A stretch of DNA of 64,000 nucleotides. Source: Escherichia coli (lineage in GTDB: Bacteria; Pseudomonadota; Gammaproteobacteria; Enterobacterales; Enterobacteriaceae). Both the position numbers and the translations under genes were made by a program. The stretch lies in the NCBI RefSeq assembly GCF_044647545.1, contig NZ_CP172818.1, one strand, 5' to 3'. Below the pieces are notes generated by a model. It searched no databases. It saw nothing but the letters and a program-made list of their open reading frames with translations, and was not told the DNA's origin. Below, piece after piece: positions 19,028 to 34,390 of the stretch. Each line of letters opens with the position of its first letter. The first letter of the stretch is position 1.

Positions 19028-19681
19028 TTAATCTGTCGCGTCTCGCCATTCGCCATTGGCAAGATTATCCAAAGAGTAATCACCCATCGCATAGCGAATC
19101 AGTCGCAGCGTGGGGAAACCAACATGGGCGGTCATGCGGCGCACCTGGCGATTACGTCCTTCATATAAGGTGATCTTCAGCCAGCTGGTGGGAATACTTT
19201 TGCGTTCACGAATTGGTGGATTCCGCGGCCATAACCACGCGGGTTCGTCAACCAGCTCTACGCCTGCGGGCAGGGTAGGGCCATCATTTAAGGTTACGCC
19301 ATTGCGCAAGGCTTCAAGTGCGTCTTGTGTGGGAATACCTTCCACCTGCACATAATAGATTTTTCCGGTGCGTTTACCCGGCTGGGTTAAACGCGCCTGC
19401 AACGCGCCGTTATTGGTCAGCACCAGTAACCCTTCGCTATCGCGGTCAAGACGACCTGCTGCATAAACGCCCTGAACCGGGATGAATTCTTTTAATGTTT
19501 TGCGTCCGGCTTCATCGGTGAACTGCGGAAGAACATCGTAGGGTTTATTGAACAGGATCACACGCGTGGGCTGGTTTTCAGGTTTACGCTTAGTGGAGTG
19601 TTGCGAGTTTAGTCGACTAACCTGTTTTTTTCTAAAAGAAGTTTTTTGCATGGTATTTTCAGAGATTATGAATTGCCGCAT
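19028..19681 (-). CDS. rluE: 23S rRNA pseudouridine synthase RluE
   Basis: 217-aa ORF of the RsuA/RluE family with basic N-terminus. Confidence 0.85.
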
Positions 19682-19852
19682 TATAGCCTAATAACGCGCA
19701 TCTTTCATGACGGCAAACAATAGGGTAGTATTGACAAGCCAATTACAAATCATTAACAAAAAATTGCTCTAAAGCATCCGTATCGCAGGACGCAAACGCA
19801 TATGCAACGTGGTGGCAGACGAGCAAACCAGTAGCGCTCGAAGGAGAGGTGA

Positions 19853-21103
19853 ATGGAAAGTAAAGTAGTTGTTCCGGCACAAGGCAAGAAGATCACCCTG
19901 CAAAACGGCAAACTCAACGTTCCTGAAAATCCGATTATCCCTTACATTGAAGGTGATGGAATCGGTGTAGATGTAACCCCAGCCATGCTGAAAGTGGTCG
20001 ACGCTGCAGTCGAGAAAGCCTATAAAGGCGAGCGTAAAATCTCCTGGATGGAAATTTACACCGGTGAAAAATCCACACAGGTTTATGGTCAGGATGTCTG
20101 GCTACCTGCTGAAACCCTTGATCTGATTCGTGAATATCGCGTTGCCATCAAAGGCCCGCTGACCACTCCGGTTGGTGGTGGTATTCGCTCTCTCAACGTT
20201 GCTCTGCGCCAGGAACTGGATCTCTACATCTGCCTGCGTCCGGTACGTTACTATCAGGGCACTCCAAGCCCGGTTAAACACCCTGAACTGACCGATATGG
20301 TTATCTTCCGTGAAAACTCGGAAGACATTTATGCGGGTATCGAATGGAAAGCAGACTCTGCCGACGCTGAGAAAGTGATTAAATTCCTGCGTGAAGAGAT
20401 GGGCGTGAAGAAAATTCGCTTCCCGGAACATTGCGGCATCGGTATTAAGCCGTGTTCTGAAGAAGGCACCAAACGTCTGGTTCGTGCAGCGATCGAATAC
20501 GCAATTGCTAACGATCGTGACTCTGTGACCCTGGTGCACAAAGGCAACATCATGAAGTTCACCGAAGGCGCGTTTAAAGACTGGGGCTACCAGCTGGCGC
20601 GTGAAGAGTTTGGCGGTGAACTGATCGACGGCGGCCCGTGGCTGAAAGTTAAAAACCCGAACACCGGCAAAGAGATCGTCATTAAAGACGTGATTGCTGA
20701 TGCATTCCTGCAACAGATCCTGCTGCGTCCGGCTGAATATGATGTTATCGCCTGTATGAACCTGAACGGTGACTACATTTCTGACGCCCTGGCAGCGCAG
20801 GTTGGCGGTATCGGTATCGCCCCTGGCGCAAACATCGGTGACGAATGCGCCCTGTTTGAAGCCACCCACGGTACTGCGCCGAAATATGCCGGTCAGGACA
20901 AAGTAAACCCAGGCTCTATTATTCTCTCCGCTGAGATGATGTTACGCCATATGGGCTGGACTGAAGCCGCAGACTTGATTGTTAAAGGTATGGAAGGCGC
21001 AATCAACGCCAAGACTGTAACCTATGACTTCGAACGTCTGATGGAAGGCGCTAAACTGCTGAAATGTTCAGAGTTTGGTGACGCGATCATCAAGAATATG
21101 TAA
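19853..21103 (+). CDS. icd: isocitrate dehydrogenase (NADP)
   Basis: 416-aa ORF; the last ~53 codons lie inside the prophage-borne duplicated segment. Confidence 0.95.
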
Positions 21104-21154
21104 TTACTACATGTGTTAAATATTGTAACGGGCGTATAACACGCCCGTTGTTTT
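20943..21154 (+). repeat. attL-side copy of the 212-bp direct duplication (icd 3' end plus terminator)
   Basis: Appears identical to 36118..36329 by visual alignment at a constant offset of 15175 bp. Confidence 0.85.
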
Positions 21155-21156
21155 TT
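21127..21156 (+). terminator. rho-independent terminator of icd
   Basis: Stem aacgggcg / cgcccgtt with 7-nt loop followed by TTTTTT. Confidence 0.8.
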
Positions 21157-21518
21157 GTTAGGCTGCTAACGGTTATCAAAATTTTATCAAAAAAAGTTAT
21201 CAAAACCCCTCGGTAGTTTTGGGGTAGGCTGGCCGGTCAGGTGGTAGTTCTACTACTAGTCTCCCACATAGATATTCCTTAGCTTTTTATTATTGCTGGC
21301 GGACGCTCGTTAATATTTAAGGTCTTCATTGATTAAGACATCCCCAAAGTTAGTTATGTATTCACTGTTATTAGGACAATTATGAATTACCACTCCTTAC
21401 ACCCGCTCAAATATTGTTAAATTGCCGGTTTTGTATCAACTACTCACCCGGGACTCGCCAGGGGACAGCCAACAGGCATTGGGTGCAATCACCTTAGCGT
21501 TCAGGTACATGCGGAATG

Positions 21519-21543
21519 TAAAAAAGGCCGCGAGCGCGGCCCC
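21519..21543 (-). terminator. rho-independent terminator downstream of ymfD
   Basis: Minus strand: GGCCGCGCTCGCGGCC hairpin followed by TTTTTT, 55 nt beyond the ymfD stop. Confidence 0.65.
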
Positions 21544-21596
21544 TTCACATACATCTTTAGTACTGAGACTGTTTAACCTAGGGAATTATTATCGTA

Positions 21597-22262
21597 TTAT
21601 ATTGCATTACAACTCCCAACAGTGACATATGAACTTCCTGCTTTACTCCACGACTTTAATATTTCAAGGCCATGTGAAGAACATATTTCTTGCACTGCGA
21701 GTTCATCGAGTAATCCATAGTAAGAAACACTTTTTGAATTTTTGTAAATGTATCCGTAAAGATGTTTTCTTCCTGTTTCGTATTTTTTGAAGTATGAGCT
21801 TTTATATTGATTTACAATAAGAGTCTCACCTCCTGATTTTAGTAATCTCTTGATGCTAAGAACTATTTTGTCGATTGTATCCCGACAAGGAACGGCAGAG
21901 AGAACATTAGAGCAAAGGATGAAATCGTAACCCCCAATTATTTTGTCGACATCCTCGAAAGCAACTGTATTTGCATTTTTATAATATCGTGGGACATAGT
22001 CAATAATTTTAGTTTTAATTCCTCTAATAATTTGCTCTCTTTCAAGTTGCCTTTTCGAGTCTAGAAAAGTAACTTCATCAAATTTACTGATTAATTCATC
22101 AGAATATCTAAGTTTTCCGCAGCCAAAATCAAGGGCGTGGCCATTTTTCTCAATGCTTCTAATATACTCGCAAAGATATCTAGAGGGCATCGTATGAGGT
22201 TTTGCTGCATTCTCTGAGCGAATATTAACTCCGTGCATATTATAGTTCAAAGCAAGTACCAT
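21597..22262 (-). CDS. ymfD: putative SAM-dependent methyltransferase (prophage cargo)
   Basis: 221-aa ORF; class I MTase motif I LDFGCGK; AT-rich codon usage; start abuts the ymfE stop. Confidence 0.75.
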   Translation of the reverse strand: MVLALNYNMHGVNIRSENAAKPHTMPSRYLCEYIRSIEKNGHALDFGCGKLRYSDELISKFDEVTFLDSKRQLEREQIIRGIKTKIIDYVPRYYKNANTVAFEDVDKIIGGYDFILCSNVLSAVPCRDTIDKIVLSIKRLLKSGGETLIVNQYKSSYFKKYETGRKHLYGYIYKNSKSVSYYGLLDELAVQEICSSHGLEILKSWSKAGSSYVTVGSCNAI

Positions 22263-22976
22263 TCAATTAATGTTATTTTTAGTGAAAAATTCTTTTATTT
22301 TATCGTCCGGGATTTTTCCGACTTGACTTTCAGTTCTGGGCTTAACTGTCAAAGCAAAGATAATACCACTCACTGAGAATGATAAAATTACAAAAAAGAA
22401 TAAAGACAGCAAAGAACCTTCAACATGAAAAATATCCATTTGTTTGCAAAAAAAGATTATTAGGAAGGAAATTAATGCAATTATCGAAAATTCAAAAAAT
22501 ATCCAAAAATAGTATACTTTATTCCAGAAGAGTTCAATATAATGTTTGTCTTCAATTTTTCTTACTTCAGGGTAATATAGATTGCTCATTACATTGTGAG
22601 CTTCATCTTTATTTAATTTTCTGTTGACTCCAGCTCTCCGTGATAACGGTTTTATAATTAGATGCTTATCCCAAAGATATCGCACCCGAAGTAGTTTGGC
22701 TGCATTGTTATGTAGGTCTAACGCACCGCTAATTAAATATGCAAAAATCGCAAAAGCACAAGGTAATATACCAAAAGATAGTGCCCAATTAATAAAGCTC
22801 TCATGATCTTTAATAGGTGGGACATACTTGGTTGGTAATGTTATTAAAGGGATGTATTCGTAAATAACTAGAAGTATGCAATATATTAGCGTATTTAAGA
22901 AAGTTGCTTTATGAAGTTTAGGCAACATTTCATTATAATTTTTGGGGGGTTCGAACATATTATTCACCTGAGTCAC
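22263..22976 (-). CDS. ymfE: multi-pass membrane protein (prophage cargo)
   Basis: 237-aa ORF with about 4 predicted hydrophobic helices; very AT-rich; first gene of a two-gene minus-strand operon with ymfD. Confidence 0.7.
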   Translation of the reverse strand: MTQVNNMFEPPKNYNEMLPKLHKATFLNTLIYCILLVIYEYIPLITLPTKYVPPIKDHESFINWALSFGILPCAFAIFAYLISGALDLHNNAAKLLRVRYLWDKHLIIKPLSRRAGVNRKLNKDEAHNVMSNLYYPEVRKIEDKHYIELFWNKVYYFWIFFEFSIIALISFLIIFFCKQMDIFHVEGSLLSLFFFVILSFSVSGIIFALTVKPRTESQVGKIPDDKIKEFFTKNNIN

Positions 22977-23162
22977 GCTTTAGGATAGTGTAATGGTAAT
23001 ATTTAATTAAGTGTCATTATATACTTTTCAGTAGGTTAGTTACAATTTTTTGTATCTGTTCAGGCTGACCTAGCTTCGCTGACAGACAATATTGTGATCA
23101 GTAGCACGTATCGAGGAGGAGTAGCGCTACAAATTTGACGCTGGGTGAGAATCTGAAATTGA

Positions 23163-23234
23163 TAGAAATGAAATAATGAAATAATGAAATGATGAAATGA
23201 TGAAATGATGAAATGATGAAATGATGAAATGATG
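23163..23234. repeat. tandem octamer repeat: (AAATAATG)x2 then (AAATGATG)x6
   Basis: Directly readable perfect 8-bp tandem array in the divergent intergenic region between ymfE and lit. Confidence 0.9.
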
Positions 23235-23424
23235 ACAGAGTGTCCAGTGGGCACGGATGGTGTCTTACGACATGCTTACCTTAATCGTTCCCAGTGTGCC
23301 TATAGCAGATATTCTAAACATGTCGATAATTCATTACGCATATAGTATCGAACATAGAAAAAACTGAAGATTCATCTTATTTTGTATATACTACCTAGCC
23401 CAACAATGTAGAGGTTAACGAAAA

Positions 23425-24318
23425 ATGCGCTCACCAATTTGTCATCTTTTCTCAGCAATTAATTCATCACCATTTAAGATTGCACCAGAGAAGGAGCAAG
23501 ATCTTAAAACGATAGTTGACGACAAAAAAATTATAATTTCAGTTGTGAGTGAACCTGGTTTTAATATCCGAGTCAGGAAGAATGAGAGTAATAATTCACA
23601 TGAAATAGTTCTAACAGTAGCTTCACTTGAATATATTTGGGCATTTTCCAATTTCTTTTGGGTTTTTACGCAAGAGTACTCCAAATCTCAGAAAAATAAT
23701 GATGAGCACTTTGATTTAACAGGAAAAAATAGGCTTAAAAAGTCTGATGAACTTCTTAAATGGGCAAGGAAAAACTTGCAAACAACAGGTTGCGAATCAT
23801 GGCCTAAAAAATGTCCCAAGCCAGAAGCATATTTACAAGGAAGCGAAGACTCACAAGTTGCTAGCGAGATATTTCTTTGTGCTATTGCTTGGATTCTTCA
23901 TCATGAAATAAGTCATGTTGTTTTACAGCATCCATTGGTCACTACAGCATTCTCCACTCAAGAGGAGCGTGAAGCAGATTCACATGCTACAAAATGGATA
24001 TTAGGCAACCTGTATGAATCCGCTCCTGAATTAAAGAAACGTGCACTTGGCATTGCTACGGCAGTGCTTTGTATACAAAGCTTAGAAGTTGAAAATTACT
24101 TCTGTTTACAAAATACACACCCAGCTGCATATGAGCGTATATATTCGAATATTTCATGCTACCCTGTCGGAAATGAAGAGTTGATTGAAGCTCTATGTAC
24201 AGTGATGCTTCAATATCTTTTCCATGGCAAAAATATCAATGTGAATCTAGATGGGGAGTCCTTTTCATCGATTTTAGGTGATCTTCTCTGTGATATTTCA
24301 CGTCTTACCAGTAACTGA
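23425..24318 (+). CDS. lit: Lit cell-death zinc metalloprotease (phage-exclusion protease targeting EF-Tu)
   Basis: 297-aa ORF with HEXXH motif in ILHHEISHVVLQH; AT-rich. Confidence 0.85.
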   Translation: MRSPICHLFSAINSSPFKIAPEKEQDLKTIVDDKKIIISVVSEPGFNIRVRKNESNNSHEIVLTVASLEYIWAFSNFFWVFTQEYSKSQKNNDEHFDLTGKNRLKKSDELLKWARKNLQTTGCESWPKKCPKPEAYLQGSEDSQVASEIFLCAIAWILHHEISHVVLQHPLVTTAFSTQEEREADSHATKWILGNLYESAPELKKRALGIATAVLCIQSLEVENYFCLQNTHPAAYERIYSNISCYPVGNEELIEALCTVMLQYLFHGKNINVNLDGESFSSILGDLLCDISRLTSN

Positions 24319-24408
24319 TATGGCTGTCCGCCGCTCGCTTAAAGTGGACTTTTTAGTTTTTATCATGTGCGGTGAGAAATTCAATGTGGCGTTGAGATGC
24401 TTAAAGGT

Positions 24409-25536
24409 TCACAACGCTACTTTGCTCCATCCTTTACCTCGATCATCATGATAACGATCGGTTTGTTGTTGTGTTTTATGACCAAGTAGTTTTTGTGTGT
24501 CTAACCCCTGTTCTTTATACAGACGTTCAGATAAAGACCTTTGCTCATGGAATGTCGCAGGTGAACCCTCTCCCCAGTCAATTCTTGCTAAATCTCTCGC
24601 TTTACTAAAATTCATCGTCAATGTATTGGCTTTAACCTGCGCTCCGCGCTCTGCTTGTGAAGTTGAACGAAAAAAATGCACTAAGTATGCACTGACTGCA
24701 TAGTCACGGCAGCGGGCTACTACATCGCGTAAACTCCAGTTAATCGCATTGAGGCGAAGAGAAAGAGGAATTGCGATTTTGCTCCCGGTCTTTTCCTGAA
24801 TGACATGAAGATGATCATCCCAAATATCGCTAAATTTCATACGCGAAATATCACCTAACCGCTGACCAGTAACCAGCGCTAACAGCATGGCATTTCCCAT
24901 GTAACGATGAGTAGCGTCTGCGATATCGAAGATTTTTTTCCATTCTTCAAGGCTCAGCCGTTGTCGGGTAATTTTTCTTCTTGGTTGTTTAGTGGCTAAT
25001 GCTGGGTTATAGCCAGGAGGTACTTCTCCGTAGTGCTGCGCCTCTTTGAAAACATCAATCAGGACGGAGCGAACTACTTGTGCCATTCTTGGCCGCCCAG
25101 CGGCGATATACTCATCAAGCAATTGTGCTATATCTCTGACATCAACGGCTGAGATCAACTTCATTCCTGCTCGTTCTCTGAGCAAGGATACTGGTTTAGC
25201 TTTTTGTTTATAGGTGTTGAGTCTTATATCACCACTTTTAAGCCTGTCATCCTGGATCGCTTGATAGCGATCTAACCAGGTTGACGTTGTGATAGCCTTT
25301 CCTTTGCTGGTTGCGATCCTGTCACTGATAGCCAGAATCTGCCGGGTTCTTTGTTCAGCCAGGCGAGTGTTGGCCTCAGTGGCAATAGCGATAGCTTCAG
25401 CTTCGTTTGTTCCCAAAGCATGGAATTTTCCTGTCACTGGATGCTTATACCGCCAATAGACTTTATTTACCTTCCTACTATAAAGCGGATATAAGTTAGG
25501 GACTGAAACATTATTCTTACGCGGTCTGGCTGCCAT
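24409..25536 (-). CDS. intE: tyrosine integrase
   Basis: 375-aa ORF; C-terminal catalytic region with R..HxxR..Y (LLGHKTQQQTDRYHDD). Confidence 0.9.
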   Translation of the reverse strand: MAARPRKNNVSVPNLYPLYSRKVNKVYWRYKHPVTGKFHALGTNEAEAIAIATEANTRLAEQRTRQILAISDRIATSKGKAITTSTWLDRYQAIQDDRLKSGDIRLNTYKQKAKPVSLLRERAGMKLISAVDVRDIAQLLDEYIAAGRPRMAQVVRSVLIDVFKEAQHYGEVPPGYNPALATKQPRRKITRQRLSLEEWKKIFDIADATHRYMGNAMLLALVTGQRLGDISRMKFSDIWDDHLHVIQEKTGSKIAIPLSLRLNAINWSLRDVVARCRDYAVSAYLVHFFRSTSQAERGAQVKANTLTMNFSKARDLARIDWGEGSPATFHEQRSLSERLYKEQGLDTQKLLGHKTQQQTDRYHDDRGKGWSKVAL

Positions 25537-25762
25537 TACTCAAAATCCGTTGCAAAAGTAATGAGTCATTTTTCTTGATTACAGGTGTTACCAACTCCCC
25601 AACTAACTCGGCGTCCTCACGCACTCGCCATAACCGGCCTTGTTTCATGGCCGGTGGACAAAATAAATTCTGCTTAGCATAACGACGCAATGTGGACACA
25701 CTTGGAGGATTACTTCTGTATTTTTCAGCAGCCCATTCTTCAAGAGTTAACATTTGAAGCAT
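25517..25762 (-). CDS. xisE: excisionase (AlpA/Xis-like HTH)
   Basis: 81-aa ORF overlapping the int start; typical int-xis arrangement. Confidence 0.8.
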   Translation of the reverse strand: MLQMLTLEEWAAEKYRSNPPSVSTLRRYAKQNLFCPPAMKQGRLWRVREDAELVGELVTPVIKKNDSLLLQRILSNGSQTA

Positions 25763-26228
25763 ATGCGATCACCTTATTACTACACTAACTGCTTAGTCTC
25801 ATCATATCGACCCTGCAAGGCCGATTAGTTTCTCCACAAAACAGAGAAGAACACCTGCGGCGGCAGCCGCCCGGATGGATTGGGTTATGAGCCCGTCGTC
25901 CGGTGATGCTCTTCTCTGTTTTGTAAAAAGGACGGTACCAGCCTGAAGCAAGGGTACAAACTGGTACCGCCAGGACTACACACAGCATAAAGTTGTGGTG
26001 CCGGGTGCCTCCCGGTGCCTGGCGAAGGTTGCACACCAGACGGGTGGGTATCCACAGAAGGTCGACTGTCAGCCTCAACCTTAACCCGCGTGCGCTGAGC
26101 CGCATTCACCACAACGCTAAGGATTCTCTTTGGTTGAAAATACTTAGCTGTTATGTGCCTGTCTTTTCACCACTTCAGGCTCGGTGGTATGCTGGAGTTC
26201 TCACACAGCCAGCAAGCAAGGAAACTTA

Positions 26229-26570
26229 ATGAACCAGTTTTATGTTCACGTTCGTCTATTTGAAGACACAGCCGAACAGACCAAAAAATTTGAAGAATTA
26301 ATGCTTAACTTTCTGTACCAGAAAACAGTTAAAGAGTCTGACGATAGCTGCTGCAGACTGATTCCAGAGGGATATATCCTCAAAAGTACAATGAACTGCC
26401 AACAAATCCTTGATCAAACATTTTCAATTGCTAACAGTGCCGGTGTTGACGCAAATATATTTGTCTGTAAATTTGAACAAAGCGCATGCTTACTTCCGTC
26501 TGCTTCCTTAGTTGGTAACGATTTCGTTCATTACGATCTTACGCCTAAGCCCATCAAGCTCGATTCTTAA
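26229..26570 (+). CDS. ymfI: prophage protein of unknown function
   Basis: Start MNQFYVHVRLF gives 113 aa; no recognisable motif. Confidence 0.55.
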   Translation: MNQFYVHVRLFEDTAEQTKKFEELMLNFLYQKTVKESDDSCCRLIPEGYILKSTMNCQQILDQTFSIANSAGVDANIFVCKFEQSACLLPSASLVGNDFVHYDLTPKPIKLDS

Positions 26571-26816
26571 AGCCTTAACCATTGTGTCGTGATAAACACG
26601 GCTCACCTTCTCTCCATTGCATGGCAGAGGGGTGAGTGTGTTAGCCATGAAATTCATGAACTCGGTTCGACCAGGGGCTTGCGCCCCGCAAGTCTTTAAT
26701 GCCTGTTTTGCTAACAAAATGCGGGCCTCAGTGCCTGCATTTGGCTCTATCTGCTGCAAACGTTTAGCGTCTTCCAGCAACAATGCGATCACATGCTTCA
26801 AATTCTGCTCATTCAT
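26508..26816 (-). CDS. ymfJ: prophage protein of unknown function
   Basis: 102-aa ORF downstream of a strong promoter-like element. Confidence 0.6.
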   Translation of the reverse strand: MNEQNLKHVIALLLEDAKRLQQIEPNAGTEARILLAKQALKTCGAQAPGRTEFMNFMANTLTPLPCNGEKVSRVYHDTMVKALRIELDGLRRKIVMNEIVTN

Positions 26817-26922
26817 CTATTCTCTCCACTGAAATCATCCGCTAACGAATCATCCCGGTCTTCGTACGTACCGGGCGGGCTACTTCGTGGGCGTCCTGCC
26901 TGTTTGTTGTTTCTCTTGGGTA

Positions 26923-26951
26923 CATTATGTATCTCAAAGGTACATTGTCAA
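26923..26951 (-). promoter_or_regulatory. sigma70-like promoter for ymfJ with overlapping GTACC operator half-sites
   Basis: Minus strand TTGACA, 17-nt spacer, ATAATG; tGTACC motifs overlap both hexamers. Confidence 0.5.
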
Positions 26952-26952
26952 G

Positions 26953-26978
26953 TATAAAAAAACCTGCCGAAGCAGGTT
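26953..26978 (-). terminator. rho-independent terminator of cohE
   Basis: Minus strand AACCTGC-ttcg-GCAGGTT followed by TTTTTTT, 13 nt after the cohE stop. Confidence 0.75.
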
Positions 26979-26990
26979 CATAAACATTGA

Positions 26991-27665
26991 TTAGGCTTTG
27001 ATTTTGTATCTTCTTGGTTTTCCTGAGAAAATCACAGTACCAATTATAGAGCAATTACCGTTGATCTTAATGTAAGGCTCAGGCCAGTTTGGGTTTAACG
27101 CTTTGAGATAACGCTGTGTCCCATCTTCTATCAACCTTTTGAAGGTGGTTTCACCTGTATCGTGCATCAATGCAATAACGTCGTCACCGTGGCAGGCAGG
27201 TACTTCAGGATCGACAAAAATCATGTCTCCCGGGCGGTACTCATCAATCATTGAATCACCTATTACCCGCAAGATATAAGTCATTTCCCCACAGGGTACA
27301 GGGCAGGGATACGTTTCTGCTGTGCTCAAATCAACCTCAGAATATCCAACTTCTTTCCATGCTCCGGCCTGTACCCATGATATGACAGGGACTAATGTGA
27401 TTTGTTTATTAGTGATTGAAACATCAGGTTTTTTTGTGATGTTCGTTGTCTGGTGTTCTTGATCGAGCCATCCTACAGGCAGGTCGAAACATTTTTCGAT
27501 GTGTCGTGCCATGCTGTCACCGATATTTTTAGTAGCACCATCTCCCATAAACCTGCTGGTCTGGGTTGGCTCGCGATCAATCATAGTGGCAAAGGAAGAA
27601 TTCCCGCCAACACCATCTCTCAGTTTTCTGGCGTTAGACCGCCGGATGTCATGGATTGTTTTCAT
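26991..27665 (-). CDS. cohE: CI-like prophage repressor (HTH plus LexA-type S24 peptidase domain)
   Basis: 224-aa ORF; C-terminal VIGDSMIDEYRPGDMIFVDPE self-cleavage domain; divergent from cro-like gene. Confidence 0.85.
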   Translation of the reverse strand: MKTIHDIRRSNARKLRDGVGGNSSFATMIDREPTQTSRFMGDGATKNIGDSMARHIEKCFDLPVGWLDQEHQTTNITKKPDVSITNKQITLVPVISWVQAGAWKEVGYSEVDLSTAETYPCPVPCGEMTYILRVIGDSMIDEYRPGDMIFVDPEVPACHGDDVIALMHDTGETTFKRLIEDGTQRYLKALNPNWPEPYIKINGNCSIIGTVIFSGKPRRYKIKA

Positions 27666-27680
27666 AACGAAATTAAAACC

Positions 27681-27701
27681 CTTGTACCGTTAAGGTACAA
27701 G
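27681..27701. promoter_or_regulatory. operator palindrome CTTGTACC-gttaa-GGTACAAG between cohE and croE
   Basis: Perfect 8-bp inverted repeat with 5-bp spacer; related half-sites ATGTACACC/GGTACAT at 27731..27750. Confidence 0.6.
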
Positions 27702-27705
27702 TATC

Positions 27706-27734
27706 TTGAAGGTTCATTTCAATCATGTAATATG
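27706..27734 (+). promoter_or_regulatory. candidate croE promoter
   Basis: TTGAAG, 16-17 nt spacer, TAATAT, then GGAGG SD at 27741..27745. Confidence 0.4.
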
Positions 27735-27755
27735 TACACCGGAGGTACATATTGT

Positions 27756-27956
27756 ATGAAAGCGTATTGGGACTCTTTAACCAAAGAACAGCAGGGCGAG
27801 TTGGCCGGAAAAGTTGGCTCAACACCTGGCTACTTACGGCTGGTTTTCAATGGCTATAAAAAAGCCAGTTTTGTGCTGGCTAAAAAACTTGAGCAATACA
27901 CATCAGGTGCAATTACGAAATCTGACTTAAGACCGGATATCTATCCGAAAGATTAG
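27756..27956 (+). CDS. croE: Cro-like regulator
   Basis: ATG 27756 (MKAYWDSLTKEQQ) gives 66 aa; GGAGG 11 nt upstream; divergent from cohE. Confidence 0.75.
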   Translation: MKAYWDSLTKEQQGELAGKVGSTPGYLRLVFNGYKKASFVLAKKLEQYTSGAITKSDLRPDIYPKD

Positions 27957-27987
27957 CAGAACACTTTCAATTTTTAACCACAGAACG

Positions 27988-28554
27988 ATGAGGCTAATCG
28001 TGGGTAAGCATCACTGGAAAATAGAAAAACAGCCTGAGTGGTACGTGAAAGCTGTCAGAAAAACTATCGCGGCGTTGCCGAGTGGTTACGCTGAAGCGGC
28101 TGACTGGCTCGATGTAACAGAAAACGCTTTATTCAACCGCCTTCGTGCAGATGGCGATCAGATTTTCCCGCTGGGATGGGCAATGGTTTTACAGCGTGCT
28201 GGTGGCACTCACTTCATTGCTGATGCTGTGGCGCAGTCTGCAAATGGCGTCTTTGTGTCTCTTCCTGACGTCGAGGATGTGGACAACGCCGATATTAACC
28301 AGCGTCTGCTGGAAGTCATTGAACAGATCGGCAGTTATTCAAAACAGATTCGTTCAGCAATCGAAGACGGTGTAGTGGAACCGCATGAGAAGACAGCAAT
28401 TAACGACGAGCTGTATCTCTCAATTTCGAAGCTGCAGGAGCATGCAGCACTTGTCTACAAAATTTTTTGCATTTCAGAAAGTAACGCCCGCGAGTGTGCA
28501 GCTCCGGGCGTCGTGGCGTCGATTGCTTCTGGTTGTGGAGAAACTAACGCATGA
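27988..28554 (+). CDS. ymfL: prophage regulatory protein (CII-like family)
   Basis: 188-aa ORF immediately downstream of croE, early-region position. Confidence 0.6.
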
Positions 28555-28889
28555 ACAGTTTAACAACACACTACCGTCGCTCGCAACTGATTGCACTTCC
28601 TGTACCGGGTGGAAAAGCGAAGGTGGAGTATTGCTATGCAGTGAATGTACCAGGTGACAGGGAAATTGTAACCCACAGCTTTGCAGAGTGGGCTGTGGGT
28701 GATTTCAACCGGCAGAAGGAGACAGTCCTTTGCGACAAGTTAACCGCTGGTTCAAAGATCACTACGGAGTGCCCGTCAGAGTCATTCGTTGGGAGCCGGA
28801 AACACAACGGGTTATCTACCTCCGTGAAGGCTATGAACATGAATGCTTCAGTCCGGTCGAACAGTTTCGTCGTAAATTCAGGGAAATAG
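28551..28889 (+). CDS. ymfM: prophage protein of unknown function
   Basis: 112-aa ORF overlapping the ymfL stop. Confidence 0.55.
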
Positions 28890-28898
28890 AGGTCGGTC

Positions 28899-30266
28899 AT
28901 GAGCACTAAATTAACCGGCTATGTATGGGATGGTTGCGCTGCATCAGGCATGAAGTTATCCAGCGTGGCAATTATGGCCCGCCTGGCTGATTTCAGTAAT
29001 GACGAAGGTGTGTGCTGGCCATCAATTGAAACCATTGCCCGTCAGATTGGCGCGGGGATGAGTACCGTCAGAACGGCTATCGCACGGCTGGAAGCAGAAG
29101 GCTGGTTAACGCGTAAGGCGCGTCGCCAGGGTGATGGTTCATCACCCCACTGTGCGGTGGTGGATGAATATCACGAGCACGCCACCGATGCGCTTTATAC
29201 CACGATGCTTACCGGGATGGGGGCGCGACGTCAGCCACTGATGTGGGCCATCACCACCGCCGGGTACAACATTGAGGGGCCGTGCTACGACAAGCGGCGG
29301 GAAGTTATCGAGATGCTCAACGGTTCGGTACCCAACGATGAACTGTTCGGGATCATCTATACCGTTGACGAAGGCGATGACTGGACCGACCCGCAGGTGC
29401 TGGAAAAAGCCAACCCGAATATTGGCGTGTCGGTTTATCGCGAATTTTTGTTAAGTCAGCAGCAGCGTGCGAAAAATAACGCCCGTCTGGCAAACGTCTT
29501 TAAAACAAAACACCTCAATATCTGGGTGTCGGCGCGTTCGGCGTATTTCAACCTGGTGAGCTGGCAGAGCTGCGAGGATAAATCACTGACCCTTGAGCAG
29601 TTCGAGGGGCAGCCGTGCATTCTGGCCTTTGACCTGGCGCGTAAGCTGGATATGAACAGCATGGCGCGACTTTATACCCGCGAGATTGACGGTAAAACGC
29701 ATTACTACAGTGTGGCCCCGCGTTTCTGGGTACCGTATGACACGGTGTACAGCGTCGAGAAAAATGAAGATCGCCGGACAGCCGAACGCTTTCAGAAATG
29801 GGTGGAAATGGGCGTTCTGACTGTTACCGCTGGTGCGGAGGTGGATTATCGCTACATCCTCGAGGAGGCCAAAGCGGCGAACAAAATCAGCCCGGTCAGT
29901 GAGTCACCCATCGACCCCTTCGGGGCGACCGGGCTGTCGCATGACCTTGCTGATGAAGACCTGAACCCCATCACCATCATTCAGAACTACACCAACATGT
30001 CCGATCCGATGAAAGAGCTGGAAGCGGCGATTGAATCGGGGCGCTTTCATCATGACGGCAATCCCATCATGACCTGGTGTATCGGCAACGTGGTCGGCAA
30101 AACCATTCCGGGTAACGATGATGTGGTGAAGCCTGTCAAGGAGCAGGCGGAAAACAAAATCGATGGTGCGGTTGCACTGATTATGGCGATTGGCAGAGCA
30201 ATGCTGTACGAGAAAGAAGACACGCTGTCTGACCACATTGAGTCCTATGGGATCCGCTCGCTTTAA
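28899..30266 (+). CDS. oweE: fusion ORF: replication-initiator-like winged-helix N-terminus joined to terminase large-subunit C-terminal region
   Basis: 455-aa ORF; N-terminal roughly 90 aa resemble phage replication initiators, the remainder resembles a terminase large subunit C-terminal domain. Confidence 0.65.
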
Positions 30267-30277
30267 CTGAGGTAATT

Positions 30278-30445
30278 ATGATCATGCTGATTCTCCGCCT
30301 CTGGTGGGCGGCGGTGCTTTTGCTGGCGTATGGTGCCGCTCATTTATCCCCCGGGGGTTTTGTTCCCGGGGCGTTGTGCCTGTTCTGGTCGTTGCTGGTG
30401 GCGCGAATCTGTTCGACACAGTCGTCTGTCGGCGGAGGTAAATAG
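30278..30445 (+). CDS. ymfR: small hydrophobic membrane peptide (55 aa)
   Basis: ATG 30278 to TAG 30445, below the ORF-track cut-off; two hydrophobic stretches ([33 protein letters not shown]). Confidence 0.4.
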
Positions 30446-30651
30446 TGTTCTTTTCGGGATTATTTCAACGAAAAAGCGACGCACCGGTGACCACGCCAGC
30501 AGAGCTGGCGGATGCCATCGGGTTGTCCTACGACACCTATACCGGAAAGCAGATCAGCAGCCAGCGGGCCATGCGACTGACGGCGGTTTTTTCCTGTGTC
30601 AGGGTGCTGGCAGAGTCGGTCGGGATGTTGCCTGCAATCTGTATCACCTGA
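30445..30651 (+). pseudogene. beeE: portal protein N-terminal fragment
   Basis: 68-aa ORF with portal-like N-terminus; downstream region has no continuous frame. Confidence 0.45.
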
Positions 30652-30841
30652 ACGGCAGCCTGAAACAGAGAGCCACGGCGAGCGTCTGCATAGCTGATCT
30701 CCACGCATCCCAATGGCTATATGACGCCGCAGGAGTTCTGGGAGCTGGTGGTCACCTGTCTGTGCCTGCGGGAAACTTTTACGCCTACAAAGTGAAAGCA
30801 TTTGGCGAAGTGGCTGAAACTGCTGCCCGTCGATCCCGGCT

Positions 30842-31633
30842 GTGTGGTATATGCGCTGGGAAGGTGTCAGCGATGGCCTGAAGGTGACCGCCGGGAGTGT
30901 TATTCAGCGCGATGACCTGGTGCAGTACACGACAACTGACGATGCAACCAGCTCCGGTGGTGTCCTGCGCGTGCCGATCACTTGCTCAACTACAGGCGCG
31001 GTCGGTAACGCTGACGACGGTACGGCATTAATCCTGGTCACGCCGGTGAATGGTCTGCCGTCTTCCGGTGTTGCAGATACCCTGACTGGCGGATTTGATA
31101 CTGAAGAGCTGGAAACGTGGCGCGCCCGCGTCATTGAGCGGTATTACTGGACGCCTCAGGGCGGGGCTGACGGGGACTATGTCGTCTGGGCTAAAGAAGT
31201 GTCAGGCATTACCCGTGCATGGACATACCGCCACTGGATGGGAACGGGGACTGTCGGTGTGATGATTGCCAGCAGTGACCTGATTAATCCCATTCCGGAA
31301 GAATCAACGGAAACGGCGGCAAGACAACACATTGAGCCACTGGCCCCGGTGGCAGGCTCTGATTTGTATGTATTCAGGCCGGTGGCGCATAAAGTGGATT
31401 TTCATATCCGCGTGACGCCGGACACACCGGAAATACGGGCTGCCATCACCGCGGAGTTGCGTTCGTTCCTGCTGCGTGATGGTTATCCGCAGGGAGAACT
31501 GAAGGTATCGCGTATCAGTGAGGCGATTTCCGGTGCGAACGGGGAATACAGCCATCAGTTGCTTGCACCGGCAGACAATATCTCCATTGCAAAAAATGAA
31601 CTGGCGGTTCTGGGGACGATTTCATGGACGTGA
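30842..31633 (+). CDS. jayE: baseplate J-like protein (possibly truncated)
   Basis: 263-aa ORF resembling the C-terminal portion of Mu gp47/P2 J baseplate proteins; precedes gp48-like gene. Confidence 0.6.
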
Positions 31634-32208
31634 CAAACGATGATTACATCCGCCTGTTATCGGCACTGTTGCCGCCCGGTCCTGCATGGTCAGCCAGCGA
31701 TCCGGCGATTGCCGGTGCGGCACCTTCATTAACCCGCGTTCATCAGCGTGCGGATGCCCTGATGCGGGAGCTGGATCCGCGCACCACCACTGAACTGATA
31801 AACCGCTGGGAGCGTCTGTGCGGTCTGCCGGATGAATGTATTCCCGCAGGGACACAGACCCTTCGCCAGCGTCAGCAACGGCTGGATGCGAAGGTTAATC
31901 TGGCGGGCGGCATCAATGAGGATTTTTACCTTGCACAGCTTGCTGCCCTGGGCAGACCAGACGCCACTATCACGCGATACGATAAAAGCACGTTCACCTG
32001 CTCATCGGCCTGTACTGACGCAGTGAATGCGCCGGAATGGCGGTATTACTGGCAGGTCAACATGCCAGCCGCCACCAACACCACCTGGATGACATGTGGC
32101 GATCCCTGTGATTCCGCACTGCGTATCTGGGGCGACACCGTTGTCGAGTGCGTGCTTAACAAACTCTGCCCTTCGCATACCTACGTAATTTTTAAATATC
32201 CGGAGTAA
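31624..32208 (+). CDS. ymfQ: tail protein (P2 I / Mu gp48-like)
   Basis: 194-aa ORF overlapping the jayE end and followed by the tail-fibre gene. Confidence 0.6.
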
Positions 32209-32211
32209 TCC

Positions 32212-32841
32212 ATGCATCGTATAGACACGAAAACCGCGCAGAAGGATAAGTTCGGCGCGGGTAAGAACGGTTTTACCCGTGGTAACCCCCAGACCGGCAC
32301 ACCTGCCACCGATCTGGATGATGACTACTTTGACATGTTGCAGGAAGAACTTTGTAGCGTGGTGGAGGCCTCCGGTGCCAGCCTGGAGAAAGGGCGGCAT
32401 GACCAGATGCTTACCGCACTTCGTGCGCTGCTGTTAAGCCGCAAGAATCCGTTTGGCGATATCAAATCGGATGGCACTGTGCAAACGGCTCTCGAAAACC
32501 TTAGTTTAGGAGAAGGAGCAAAACTCAATGCAGCAACGGCTACATTAGGACGCACCGGTTTCATAGCTATACCGGTTATGATTGGTGGTATTGAGCAATC
32601 AGTAATCATTCAGTGGGGGTGGAATGCCGCAAAAGCATCTGCCTCTGGGGGGGATGGAAATACAGTTGTATTCCCGGTTGCGTTTAATAATGCCTGTGTT
32701 GCCGTTGTTGCAAATTATGACAATGTCAGCGCACCTATCAATGCAGTGGCAACGGGGGGATATACAACCACTTCGTTTTTATTACGGTGCGCAGCTCAAA
32801 CGGGTAGTTATTACTATAACTGGATTGCTATTGGGTATTAA
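32212..32841 (+). CDS. stfP: side tail fibre protein (constant part plus currently expressed variable part)
   Basis: 209-aa ORF; Gly/Ala/Thr-rich fibre-like C-terminus; crossover site lies inside the ORF at 32489..32514. Confidence 0.7.
   Translation: MHRIDTKTAQKDKFGAGKNGFTRGNPQTGTPATDLDDDYFDMLQEELCSVVEASGASLEKGRHDQMLTALRALLLSRKNPFGDIKSDGTVQTALENLSLGEGAKLNAATATLGRTGFIAIPVMIGGIEQSVIIQWGWNAAKASASGGDGNTVVFPVAFNNACVAVVANYDNVSAPINAVATGGYTTTSFLLRCAAQTGSYYYNWIAIGY
32489..32514 (+). other. Gin/Hin/Pin-type 26-bp recombination site (left)
   Basis: CTCTCGAAAACC-TT-AGTTTAGGAGAA fits the half-site pattern TTnTCnnAAACC / GGTTTnnGAGAA. Confidence 0.7.
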
Positions 32842-32842
32842 G

Positions 32843-33319
32843 ATGAAAATATACTGTTGCTTAAATACCGTTGGTTTTTTTATGGATGGCTGTGGCGTCA
32901 TTCCGCCAGATTCTAAAGAAATAACGGCAGAACACTGGCAGTCATTATTAAAATCTCAAGCTGAAGGAGGCGTGATCGATTTTTCTGTTTTTCCTCCTTC
33001 TATTAAAGAGGTTATCCGTACTCATGATGATGAAGTCGCAGATGCGAACTTTCAAAAGCAGATGCTTATCTCTGATGCAACTGATTTTATCAATAGCAGA
33101 CAGTGGCAGGGTAAGGCTGCATTGGGAAGACTTAAAGAAGATGAGCTGAAACAATCTGATTTGTGGGCTGGATTATCTGGACGCACTGGCGCTGGTCGAT
33201 ACCGCCAGTGCGCCGGATCTGAATGGCCTACGCCTCCGGCAGTTCAGGCCAGTAAATATCCGGTACAGTGCTGGTATCCGTTGCCATCACCGCGTCAATG
33301 TAATCCAGCACGGCGTTAA
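32843..33319 (+). CDS. tfaP: tail fibre assembly protein
   Basis: ATG 32843 (MKIYCC) 2 nt after stfP; WPTPP motif near the C-terminus; the frame stays open to 33319 (158 aa) and overlaps convergent tfaE, so the true stop is uncertain. Confidence 0.55.
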   Translation: MKIYCCLNTVGFFMDGCGVIPPDSKEITAEHWQSLLKSQAEGGVIDFSVFPPSIKEVIRTHDDEVADANFQKQMLISDATDFINSRQWQGKAALGRLKEDELKQSDLWAGLSGRTGAGRYRQCAGSEWPTPPAVQASKYPVQCWYPLPSPRQCNPARR

Positions 33320-33830
33320 GTCGGGTGTTTTCTGTCTGCGTCAGCTTCCTCCCGGCCTGCAATTTCAGTTGAATCAGACTAATTGAAGCCATTGCAGTAT
33401 CAATCAGTGACTGGCGCTGTGCTTCTGCCGCTTCTATTGCGGCACCGTATTGTGCCTCGGTATCGGTTACCCATTTCTCACCATCCCATTTATCGTATGG
33501 TGTTAACGGAGCGATAGTGGTCATATTTTCAGGGTAATCCCCTGGCGCTGTGATTTCTTTTGGTTCTCCCGTTTCGGTGCTATAAACAATTTCACCGCGA
33601 TGGTCTGGCACATATTTCCACGAGTTCAAATCCGTTGAGCGGCAAATTGCATAACCCGTTTTATGTGTACCAGGTGCATCTAAACAAGAACATGCCGGGA
33701 TACCGACACCGACAGCAAGATATTCGGTTGATGTTGAGATATATTCCTGTGTCCCATTATCATAGTTATAAACGGTAATATCCCCTGCCTTTACCGCGAT
33801 CAGCGCATCATTTAATACAGCTCCACCCAT
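33228..33830 (-). CDS. tfaE: tail fibre assembly protein (alternate orientation)
   Basis: 200-aa ORF ending in the canonical Tfa motif DIYWPELPEA. Confidence 0.75.
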   Translation of the reverse strand: MGGAVLNDALIAVKAGDITVYNYDNGTQEYISTSTEYLAVGVGIPACSCLDAPGTHKTGYAICRSTDLNSWKYVPDHRGEIVYSTETGEPKEITAPGDYPENMTTIAPLTPYDKWDGEKWVTDTEAQYGAAIEAAEAQRQSLIDTAMASISLIQLKLQAGRKLTQTENTRLNAVLDYIDAVMATDTSTVPDIYWPELPEA

Positions 33831-34390
33831 TATGCAGCCCTCACGATATAATTAAATGAAATATTTCGTGGACGTGATTCGTTACCGAATTTATCTGAAC
33901 CATCAGTATTTCTCGCTGAATATGTTTGGAGGATTGTCCCTGATGATGGATTCGCATTATATTCATTTGTTCCTGCTGGATAGTATGACATTGCACTATT
34001 GTCATCTTTGAAAACAGCAGACATCAATCCATCACCACCACTTCCGTAAGCAGTTGTAAGAAATGACGGTGATCGAAAGAAAGACTATTTTGTGCCGAAA
34101 GTAAGGGAACGACCAGAATCTACCCCGCGCCCATCATCCCAGCCACGAATAAACTCACCACGTAAATCAGGCAATTTATTTGTCGGGTAAGCCTTCGCCA
34201 GTTTTGGATATTCAACGGCAGAAAAAGCCGCACCGTTGCATTTCAGCCAGCCAGTAGGCGGTGTGGCTGAAGGCCACGGAACAGGCACACCAACGGGTAA
34301 TGCCGAACCTTCTCCCAAACCAAGGTTTATGAAAATGCGGAATAAGCGGCAAATGGCATCATTCCTGCTTTTGTCAGGGAGAGCTACCAT
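33830..34390 (-). pseudogene. stfE: alternate tail-fibre variable segment with in-frame TAG
   Basis: Two same-frame ORFs (34085..34390 and 33830..34027) separated by an amber codon at 34085..34087; N-terminal part carries a tail-collar-like motif (PVGVPVPWPSATPPTGWLKCNG...LPDLRGEFIRGWDDGRG). Confidence 0.6.
34308..34333 (-). other. Gin/Hin/Pin-type 26-bp recombination site (right, inverted)
   Basis: Minus strand TTTTCATAAACC-TT-GGTTTGGGAGAA; same TT core as the left site; adjacent to pin. Confidence 0.7.

What the first reader, a model, noticed from the sequence alone, without database searches (positions are those of the whole stretch)
23163..23234. Perfect 8-bp tandem repeat array in the divergent promoter region between ymfE and lit
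(AAATAATG)x2 followed by (AAATGATG)x6 lies about 190 bp upstream of the lit start and about 190 bp upstream of the ymfE start. An 8-bp unit is not a multiple of three and the array is intergenic. Repeat-number changes by slipped-strand mispairing could alter promoter spacing, or the array could be a reiterated binding site, making it a candidate expression switch for an abortive-infection protease and/or the ymfED cassette.
Basis: seen in the sequence. Interest (0 to 1): 0.55.

Follow-up and report, generated by a model that had tools for sequence, protein, structure and literature searches.

The report
Ordinary 8-bp repeat upstream of lit
The 8-base tandem repeat between the prophage genes ymfE and lit is real and differs in copy number between E. 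coli lineages, but it lies more than 160 bp upstream of both mapped transcription starts and is unchanged in about 280 K-12 genomes, so it is most likely an ordinary slippage-generated repeat and not an expression switch.

Summary
The array is real: (AAATAATG)x2 + (AAATGATG)x6 at 23171-23234, far beyond chance. It sits in the 448-bp spacer between ymfE and lit in an e14-type prophage.

Copy number varies between lineages in whole units. Six alleles were seen: agg, aagg, aagggggg, aagggagg, aaagggggg and aaggggggg. So slippage does occur.

The switch idea finds little support:
- Published TSS maps place the ymfED start at window 23008 and the lit start at 23401. Each sits on its own core promoter. 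The array is therefore at -163 to -230 from both, almost exactly midway, and is not in either mRNA.
- No TSS is reported in or next to the array in two datasets.
- 281 of 282 complete genomes with the locus have the same length. The listed rows are mostly K-12 laboratory derivatives. This argues against high-frequency phase variation.
- The unit does not recur elsewhere in the prophage. Lit homologues at 74% identity have no upstream repeat. The same 8-mer array arises sporadically in unrelated taxa.

Best reading: a slowly evolving, probably neutral VNTR in AT-rich non-coding DNA. A weak distal effect on lit or ymfED expression, or a cryptic promoter at its left edge, is not excluded.

The parts
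23171..23234 (.). Tandem array of eight complete 8-bp units: 2 x AAATAATG ('a', 23171-23186) then 6 x AAATGATG ('g', 23187-23234)
   Evidence: chance test
23163..23170 (.). Degenerate leading unit TAGAAATG. The last 5 nt (AAATG, 23166-23170) are in register with the array. It is constant in all alleles seen.
23016..23045 (-). ymfED core promoter TTGTAA-18-TATAAT, with the TSS 7 nt downstream at 23008 (A)
   Evidence: consensus scan; the same hexamers are listed by Shimada 2014; TSS 1,198,278 reverse in SMRT-Cappable-seq; the RNAP SELEX peak at window 23077 is nearest this promoter
22986..22986 (-). Second reported 5' end for ymfE (1,197,479 in U00096.2)
   Evidence: Kim et al. 2012 supplement
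23364..23401 (+). Proximal lit promoter: weak -35 CTGAAG (23364-23369), 17-nt spacer, -10 TATACT (23387-23392), TSS at 23401, 24 nt before the ATG
   Evidence: TSS 1,198,671 forward in SMRT-Cappable-seq; sequence context; the hexamer assignment is my inference
23159..23185 (+). Candidate cryptic promoter TTGATA-15-(TGa)AATAAT, whose -10 hexamer lies in the second 'a' unit. It is a sequence prediction only, with no TSS support.
   Evidence: listed as the predicted lit promoter by Shimada 2014; located; no TSS at 11984xx-11985xx or in Kim 2012
22263..22967 (-). ymfE CDS (234 aa as annotated), first gene of the ymfED operon
23425..24318 (+). lit CDS (297 aa, Peptidase_U49, cell-death peptidase)
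   Evidence: PADLOC Lit E = 8.5e-124

Best explanation
The array is a variable-number tandem repeat produced by replication slippage in AT-rich, non-transcribed spacer DNA of the e14 accessory region (ymfD-ymfE-lit). A short proto-repeat (TAGAAATG AAATAATG AAATGATG AAATGATG, the 'agg' allele common in wild e14 carriers) expanded in the K-12-type lineage to 2 'a' + 6 'g' units. Occasional gains of one unit still occur. It sits midway between two divergent promoters but outside both, is not part of either mRNA, and most likely has no regulatory role or only a negligible one. Shown: its structure, its position relative to mapped TSSs, whole-unit polymorphism between lineages, and its stability within the K-12 pedigree. 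Inferred: slippage as the mechanism, and neutrality.
For: 1) Whole-unit alleles with identical flanks: agg (9 loci), aagg (1), aagggggg (24 loci plus 281 complete genomes), aagggagg (1), aaagggggg (1), aaggggggg (1). 2) The two main backgrounds differ by only 13 SNPs in 2.8 kb but by 5 units. Within each background the array is nearly fixed: 281 of 282 complete genomes, and 9 of the 10 fetched loci on the 1297KP-type background. 3) TSS maps: ymfED at 23008 and lit at 23401, with none in the array; an independent dataset has only a ymfE TSS at 22986. The array is therefore at -163 to -230 from both, with its centre at 23202.5 against a TSS midpoint of 23204.5. 4) The RNAP-sigma70 SELEX peak (window 23077) is nearest the near-consensus ymfED promoter. 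5) The array is not conserved with lit: 74%-identical Lit in P2-like prophages has no upstream repeat, and the spacer is absent from 50,697 phage records. 6) The same (AAATGATG)n array arises independently in 32 unrelated species genomes and 8 viral contigs, none next to Lit, YmfE or YmfD homologues. 7) There is no Rfam family, no secondary structure (z = -0.05) and no enrichment of the unit elsewhere in the window.
Against: Neutrality is inferred and was not measured; no expression data compare alleles. The array is centred almost exactly between the two TSSs, which could be coincidence or could hint at a shared upstream element. Shimada 2014 Table S2 flags an H-NS site in this spacer, although their main table does not, so AT-rich repeat length could affect silencing. 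Most sampled genomes belong to one laboratory pedigree, and Logan k=31 assemblies break at long arrays, so natural diversity is under-sampled. The two 9-unit alleles come from short-read metagenome or mock-community assemblies and could be assembly errors.
Confidence: 0.75

Rival explanations
1. Distal cis-modulator. The array changes the distance and helical phase between the divergent ymfED and lit promoters, or the length of an AT-rich tract bound by a nucleoid protein such as H-NS. Copy number would then tune expression of the toxic Lit protease and/or ymfED, as a rheostat and not an on/off switch.
For: The array is centred between the two TSSs. One table of Shimada 2014 marks an H-NS site in the spacer. 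Lit dosage matters biologically: overexpression confers phage resistance, and the native promoter is described as active only after mutation. The units are 75-88% AT.
Against: The position, at -163 or further, is beyond the usual reach of activators or UP elements (established knowledge). The same laboratory reports strong H-NS sites as almost absent from e14, and its main table does not flag this spacer. The 8-bp period is out of phase with the helix, so A-tracts do not add up to a planar bend (inference). Nothing selects for a particular copy number across lineages (3 to 9 units).
Confidence: 0.12
2. Cryptic upstream promoter. TTGATA (23159-23164), a 15-nt spacer, then an extended -10 TGaAATAAT in the second 'a' unit fires under some condition. 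This would give a lit mRNA with a leader of about 233 nt that contains the 'g' units (repeated AUG-AAA-UGA mini-ORFs). The number of 'a' units would set -10 quality: AATGAT in 'agg', AATAAT in alleles with two or more 'a' units.
For: This is the only sigma70-like match on the lit strand in the spacer (10/12 plus TG). The same hexamers are listed as the predicted lit promoter from RNAP SELEX. Allele-dependent -10 sequence is shown.
Against: There is no TSS at or near 23190-23200 in SMRT-Cappable-seq, which instead maps lit to 23401, nor in Kim 2012. The 15-nt spacer is suboptimal. The SELEX peak centre (23077) is closer to the ymfED promoter. The mini-ORFs lack a Shine-Dalgarno sequence (read from sequence).
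Confidence: 0.06
3. Reiterated protein-binding site: an operator or iteron-like array, as for MetJ on tandem 8-bp metboxes, recognised by a host or e14 regulator.
For: Head-to-tail 8-bp units are the geometry used by ribbon-helix-helix repressors such as MetJ (established knowledge, a lead only).
Against: The unit matches the metbox AGACGTCT at only 3/8 positions (by eye). No double-unit site exists elsewhere in 64 kb, including the e14 immunity region, and single units occur 6 times outside the array against about 4.6 expected. Copy number ranges from 3 to 9 units without conservation. The repeat is absent upstream of other lit homologues.
Confidence: 0.04
4. Classical contingency locus. High-frequency reversible slippage changes -35/-10 spacing and switches lit and/or ymfED on and off, as proposed by the first reader.
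For: The array lies in a divergent intergenic region, its unit length is not a multiple of 3, and its copy number is polymorphic.
Against: The array lies outside both mapped core promoters. Length is identical in 281 of 282 complete genomes spanning many independent laboratory sublines.
Confidence: 0.02

Closest known systems
Intergenic VNTR loci of E. coli used for MLVA typing (6- to 39-bp units; recalled from memory, not checked here)
   Same: Head-to-tail short units in non-coding DNA. Whole-unit copy-number differences between lineages with conserved flanks. Stable over laboratory time scales when copy number is low.
   Different: I found no description of this locus, and it exists only in e14-type prophage carriers (282 of 5,426 complete genomes). 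It has two unit variants in a fixed order (a's, then g's).
Haemophilus influenzae hifA-hifB divergent-promoter TA repeats (phase-variable fimbriae; from memory)
   Different: There the tract lies between the -10 and -35 hexamers of overlapping promoters, so unit number sets promoter strength. Here the tract is 163 bp or more upstream of both TSSs and is not hypermutable in the sampled genomes.
Neisseria meningitidis nadA TAAA tract upstream of the core promoter (from memory)
   Same: A repeat upstream of the core promoter, not inside it, that could act by changing the geometry of bound proteins. This is the model for the 'distal modulator' rival.
   Different: The nadA tract lies next to the promoter and to known IHF and NadR sites. 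No bound protein is known here, and the distance is much larger.
MetJ operators (tandem 8-bp metboxes AGACGTCT; from memory)
   Same: Tandem 8-bp units.
   Different: There is no sequence similarity (3/8). Metbox arrays overlap promoters and recur across a regulon, whereas this unit recurs nowhere else in the window.

Membership tests
Variable-number tandem repeat (slippage-generated, presumed neutral) | Head-to-tail, near-identical short units far beyond chance | tested here: met
   TRF score 122, 98% matches; period-8 identity run of 44 against a maximum of 14 in shuffles
Variable-number tandem repeat (slippage-generated, presumed neutral) | Alleles differ by whole units, with conserved flanks | tested here: met
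   3, 4, 8 and 9 units; every parsed array consisted of whole units between the same two flanking sequences
Variable-number tandem repeat (slippage-generated, presumed neutral) | No functional constraint on copy number or sequence (neutrality) | not testable with these tools
   Indirect only: the array is not conserved upstream of other lit homologues, and its position is outside the promoters and mRNAs
Phase-variable contingency locus (promoter-spacer type) | The repeat lies between or overlaps the -35 and -10 elements (or the 5' coding region) of the regulated gene | tested here: not met
   TSSs at 23008 (ymfED) and 23401 (lit) place the array at -163 to -230
Phase-variable contingency locus (promoter-spacer type) | High-frequency, reversible copy-number change visible among close relatives | tested here: not met
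   281 of 282 complete genomes have identical length. Only rare gains of one unit were seen in K-12-like contigs (L020, L087), and these may be assembly errors. Within-culture heterogeneity was not testable.
Phase-variable contingency locus (promoter-spacer type) | Expression state correlates with copy number | not testable with these tools
   No allele-specific expression data were found
Reiterated transcription-factor site (operator or iteron array, e.g. MetJ metboxes) | The unit matches a known binding motif or recurs at other regulated sites | tested here: not met
   No enrichment outside the array, and no double-unit site elsewhere in 64 kb. The metbox comparison (3/8) was done by eye. 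No systematic transcription-factor motif library was scanned.
Reiterated transcription-factor site (operator or iteron array, e.g. MetJ metboxes) | The array is conserved together with the regulated gene in relatives | tested here: not met
   Copy number varies from 3 to 9 within e14. There is no repeat upstream of 74%-identical lit.
Structured RNA or known RNA family | Match to an Rfam model, or a stable fold | tested here: not met
   No Rfam hit in the spacer at E <= 1; fold z-score -0.05

The most novel reading that the evidence does not exclude
Repeat composition and number act as a slow evolutionary rheostat for an abortive-infection toxin. Gaining a second 'a' unit would create an extended -10 promoter (TTGATA-15-TGaAATAAT) at the array's edge, and the number of 'g' units would set the length of a leader rich in AUG-AAA-UGA mini-ORFs or of an AT-rich silencer tract. 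On this reading the K-12-type 8-unit allele and the wild 3-unit allele express Lit (and hence T4 exclusion) differently under conditions not covered by existing TSS maps, such as low temperature or phage infection.
Probability: 0.07. Interest if true: 0.5.

Novelty: new member of a known kind. Interest (0 to 1): 0.15.

Why it matters
Lit is a dose-sensitive abortive-infection protease. Its native promoter is described as weak, and overexpression confers phage resistance, so a natural cis-acting switch upstream would have been interesting. The evidence instead points to an ordinary VNTR outside both promoters.

The practical value is modest:
- The array is a convenient marker that separates e14 lineages: 3-4 units in wild 1297KP-type elements, 8-9 in K-12-type.
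- It breaks k=31 de Bruijn assemblies.
- It corrects a sequence-only promoter prediction for lit in the SELEX literature.

Tried and rejected
- **Core-promoter spacing switch.** Rejected on TSS positions.
- **Conserved lit regulatory element.** Rejected. The diverged Lit loci L014-L018 have no repeat. The spacer is absent from phage records and from IMG/VR by the junction pattern.
- **Motif shared with other loci.** The 24-mer (AAATGATG)x3 hits 32 unrelated species genomes and 8 viral contigs, none near Lit, YmfE or YmfD homologues. I read these as independent slippage products.
- **RNA element.** No Rfam hit and no fold.
- **Small ORFs over the array.** The 64-aa ORF on the minus strand and the 38-aa ORF on the plus strand were not pursued. 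They have no Shine-Dalgarno sequence, and one of the two downstream SNPs in 1297KP is non-synonymous in the 38-aa ORF.
- **Literature on lit(Con) promoter mutations.** Kao et al. 1987 and Kao & Snyder 1988 are not held, nor are the e14 analysis by Mehta et al. or the dRNA-seq paper (PMC4288677).
- **Other TSS sources.** The Cappable-seq GTF is truncated before 1.19 Mb. No supplements are held for the Rend-seq and Conway papers.
- **Searching 8-mers in paper text.** Uninformative.

Full report
**Observation.** The window carries icd (19853-21103, +), ymfD (21597-22262, -), ymfE (22263-22967/22976, -), lit (23425-24318, +) and intE (24409-25536, -). This is the left end of an e14-type prophage. 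In the 448-bp ymfE-lit spacer (35% G+C against 47% for the window) the sequence reads TAGAAATG, then (AAATAATG)x2, then (AAATGATG)x6, then ACAGAG. The eight complete units occupy 23171-23234. TRF gives period 8, 8.5 copies, score 122. The period-8 identity run is 44 nt, against 9 or less for every other period in the window and 14 or less in 200 dinucleotide-preserving shuffles.

**Which genome this is.** The spacer is 100% identical to E. coli K-12, but the window is not K-12. It matches K-12 exactly over about 21250-25750 and 26250-28250, and diverges by 2-10% in the icd 3' end, in xisE/ymfH and across 28250-33900. No complete genome matches those flanks at 100%. The chromosomal backbone is a wild E. 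coli: the pot region is identical to ST648-type strains. The K-12-type block and its 8-unit allele therefore also occur in a non-K-12 host.

**Copy-number variation.** The spacer is present in 282 of 5,426 complete E. coli genomes, and the listed rows are mostly K-12 laboratory derivatives. Of these, 281 have identical length. A gain or loss of one to three units would have fallen in the 95-99% identity band of the 448-nt search, and that band is empty.

The exception is clinical strain 1297KP. It has different YmfD, YmfE and Lit alleles and carries 1 'a' + 2 'g' units. Contexts of Lit and YmfE alleles from draft genomes and metagenomes gave the alleles below.

| Allele | Units | Where seen |
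|---|---|---|
| agg | 3 | 9 loci |
| aagg | 4 | L007 |
| aagggggg | 8 | 24 loci |
| aagggagg | 8 | L012, a point change on a K-12-like background |
| aaagggggg | 9 | L020 |
| aaggggggg | 9 | L087 |

L020 and L087 are K-12-identical in their flanks but come from short-read assemblies. The two main backgrounds differ by 13 SNPs in 2.8 kb.

The array therefore changes by whole units on evolutionary time scales but is nearly fixed within each background. One caveat: Logan (k=31) contigs begin 29 nt inside the K-12-type array, so long alleles are under-sampled in that source.

**Position relative to transcription.** SMRT-Cappable-seq (PMC6131387, Supplementary Data 2) lists ymfE-ymfD with a TSS at 1,198,278 (reverse) and lit with a TSS at 1,198,671 (forward). 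It lists nothing at 11984xx-11985xx. Only NC_000913.3 numbering places these TSSs and the icd TSSs upstream of their genes.

With window = NC_000913.3 - 1,175,270, the TSSs fall at 23008 and 23401. The first sits 7 nt after TATAAT of a TTGTAA-18-TATAAT promoter. The second sits 8 nt after TATACT, which has a poor -35 (CTGAAG). That fits reports that the lit promoter is weak unless mutated. Kim et al. 2012 list only a ymfE TSS in this spacer, at 1,197,479 in U00096.2, which is window 22986.

The array therefore lies at -167 to -230 from the lit TSS and -163 to -226 from the ymfED TSS. It is almost exactly central, with its centre at 23202.5 against a TSS midpoint of 23204.5. It is not in either mRNA. 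Copy-number change cannot alter -35/-10 spacing of either mapped promoter.

**RNAP binding.** Genomic SELEX with sigma70 holoenzyme found a site in this spacer. The authors predicted TTGTAA-18-TATAAT for ymfED and TTGATA-15-AATAAT for lit. The latter maps to 23159-23185, with its -10 in the second 'a' unit and a TG extended -10. In the 'agg' allele the hexamer becomes AATGAT.

The SELEX peak coordinate is 1,197,570. I interpret it as U00096.2 numbering, because only then does it fall in this spacer. That gives window 23077, closer to the ymfED promoter than to the array. No TSS supports the array-edge promoter. I treat it as an unconfirmed prediction.

H-NS evidence is inconsistent. The paper's Table S2 flags HNS for this spacer, its main table does not, and a later paper from the same group says strong H-NS sites are almost absent in e14.

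**Tests of other functions.**
- No Rfam family matches in 21000-25600 apart from weak sub-threshold STnc150 hits elsewhere.
- The array has no fold (z = -0.05).
- The 8-mer occurs 6 times outside the array in 64 kb against about 4.6 expected, and no double-unit site exists elsewhere.
- Lit homologues at 74% identity sit in P2-like prophages without an upstream repeat.
- The spacer is absent from 50,697 phage records. Its only plasmid-collection hits are two 15.2-kb circles with the K-12 allele.
- The identical 24-mer occurs in 32 unrelated species genomes and 8 viral contigs, never near Lit, YmfE or YmfD relatives. This 8-mer evidently expands readily and independently.

**Conclusion.** The best-supported reading (about 0.75) is an ordinary, slowly evolving VNTR generated by replication slippage in AT-rich non-coding DNA, with no role in promoter spacing. 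The rivals retain about 0.2 in total, because no allele-specific expression data exist:
- a distal modulator of the divergent promoters or of H-NS silencing;
- a condition-specific cryptic promoter at the array's left edge;
- an unrecognised protein-binding array.

A classical high-frequency phase-variation switch is effectively excluded by the TSS positions and by the stability across 281 genomes. The locus is best described as a new, unremarkable member of a known kind (a bacterial VNTR), and interest is low.

Noticed in passing
window 19500-33900: The window is not K-12. Relative to K-12 it is a mosaic, identical over about 21250-25750 and 26250-28250 but 2-10% diverged in the icd 3' end, xisE/ymfH and 28250-33900. 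No complete E. coli genome matches the divergent flanks at 100%, and the chromosomal backbone resembles ST648-type strains.
   Followed up: partly
L013, L075, L076, L078, L079 (contig starts): Logan k=31 contigs carrying K-12-type lit begin 29 nt inside the array. The 48-nt perfect repeat breaks de Bruijn assemblies and biases any contig-based census against long alleles.
   Followed up: yes
plasmid records OR902851.1 and OR902858.1 (hits H163, H164): Two 15.2-kb 'plasmid' records contain the spacer at 100% identity. Their size matches e14, so they look like excised circular e14 deposited as plasmids.
   Followed up: no
L033/L034, L044/L045, L048/L049, L040, L043: Several Bacteroidales and other MAGs carry more than one array of AAATGATG / GAATGATG units per genome, sometimes long and mixed. 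This is unrelated to e14 but recurrent enough to deserve a look.
   Followed up: no
L014-L018: A 74%-identical Lit homologue sits just downstream of P2-type tail genes (gpU, gpD) in a P2-like prophage, next to a YCII-domain gene. Lit therefore travels as a moron in at least two unrelated prophage types.
   Followed up: no
window 21597-22262 (ymfD): YmfD (a class I SAM methyltransferase) gives a weak PADLOC match to mad2 of the MADS system (E = 8.6e-5), while YmfE matches nothing. The ymfED pair next to lit may be an uncharacterised defence or accessory cassette.
   Followed up: no
window 23159-23185 and PMC3946193: The SELEX paper's predicted lit promoter (TTGATA-15-AATAAT) lies at the array edge, 216 nt upstream of the experimentally mapped lit TSS. 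The paper's main table and Table S2 also disagree on whether this spacer has an H-NS site.
   Followed up: yes
L065, L068, L070, L074, L080, L082, L083, L085 (downstream of lit): Several K-12-type genomes have an IS3-family transposase inserted between lit and xisE, disrupting or replacing intE.
   Followed up: no
window 21117-21322 (-) and 21441-21512 (+): There is a sub-threshold Rfam hit to STnc150 (27.5 bits against a gathering score of 60, E = 0.0054) just past icd. MG1655 annotates the sRNA C0293 at the equivalent of 21441-21512.
   Followed up: no
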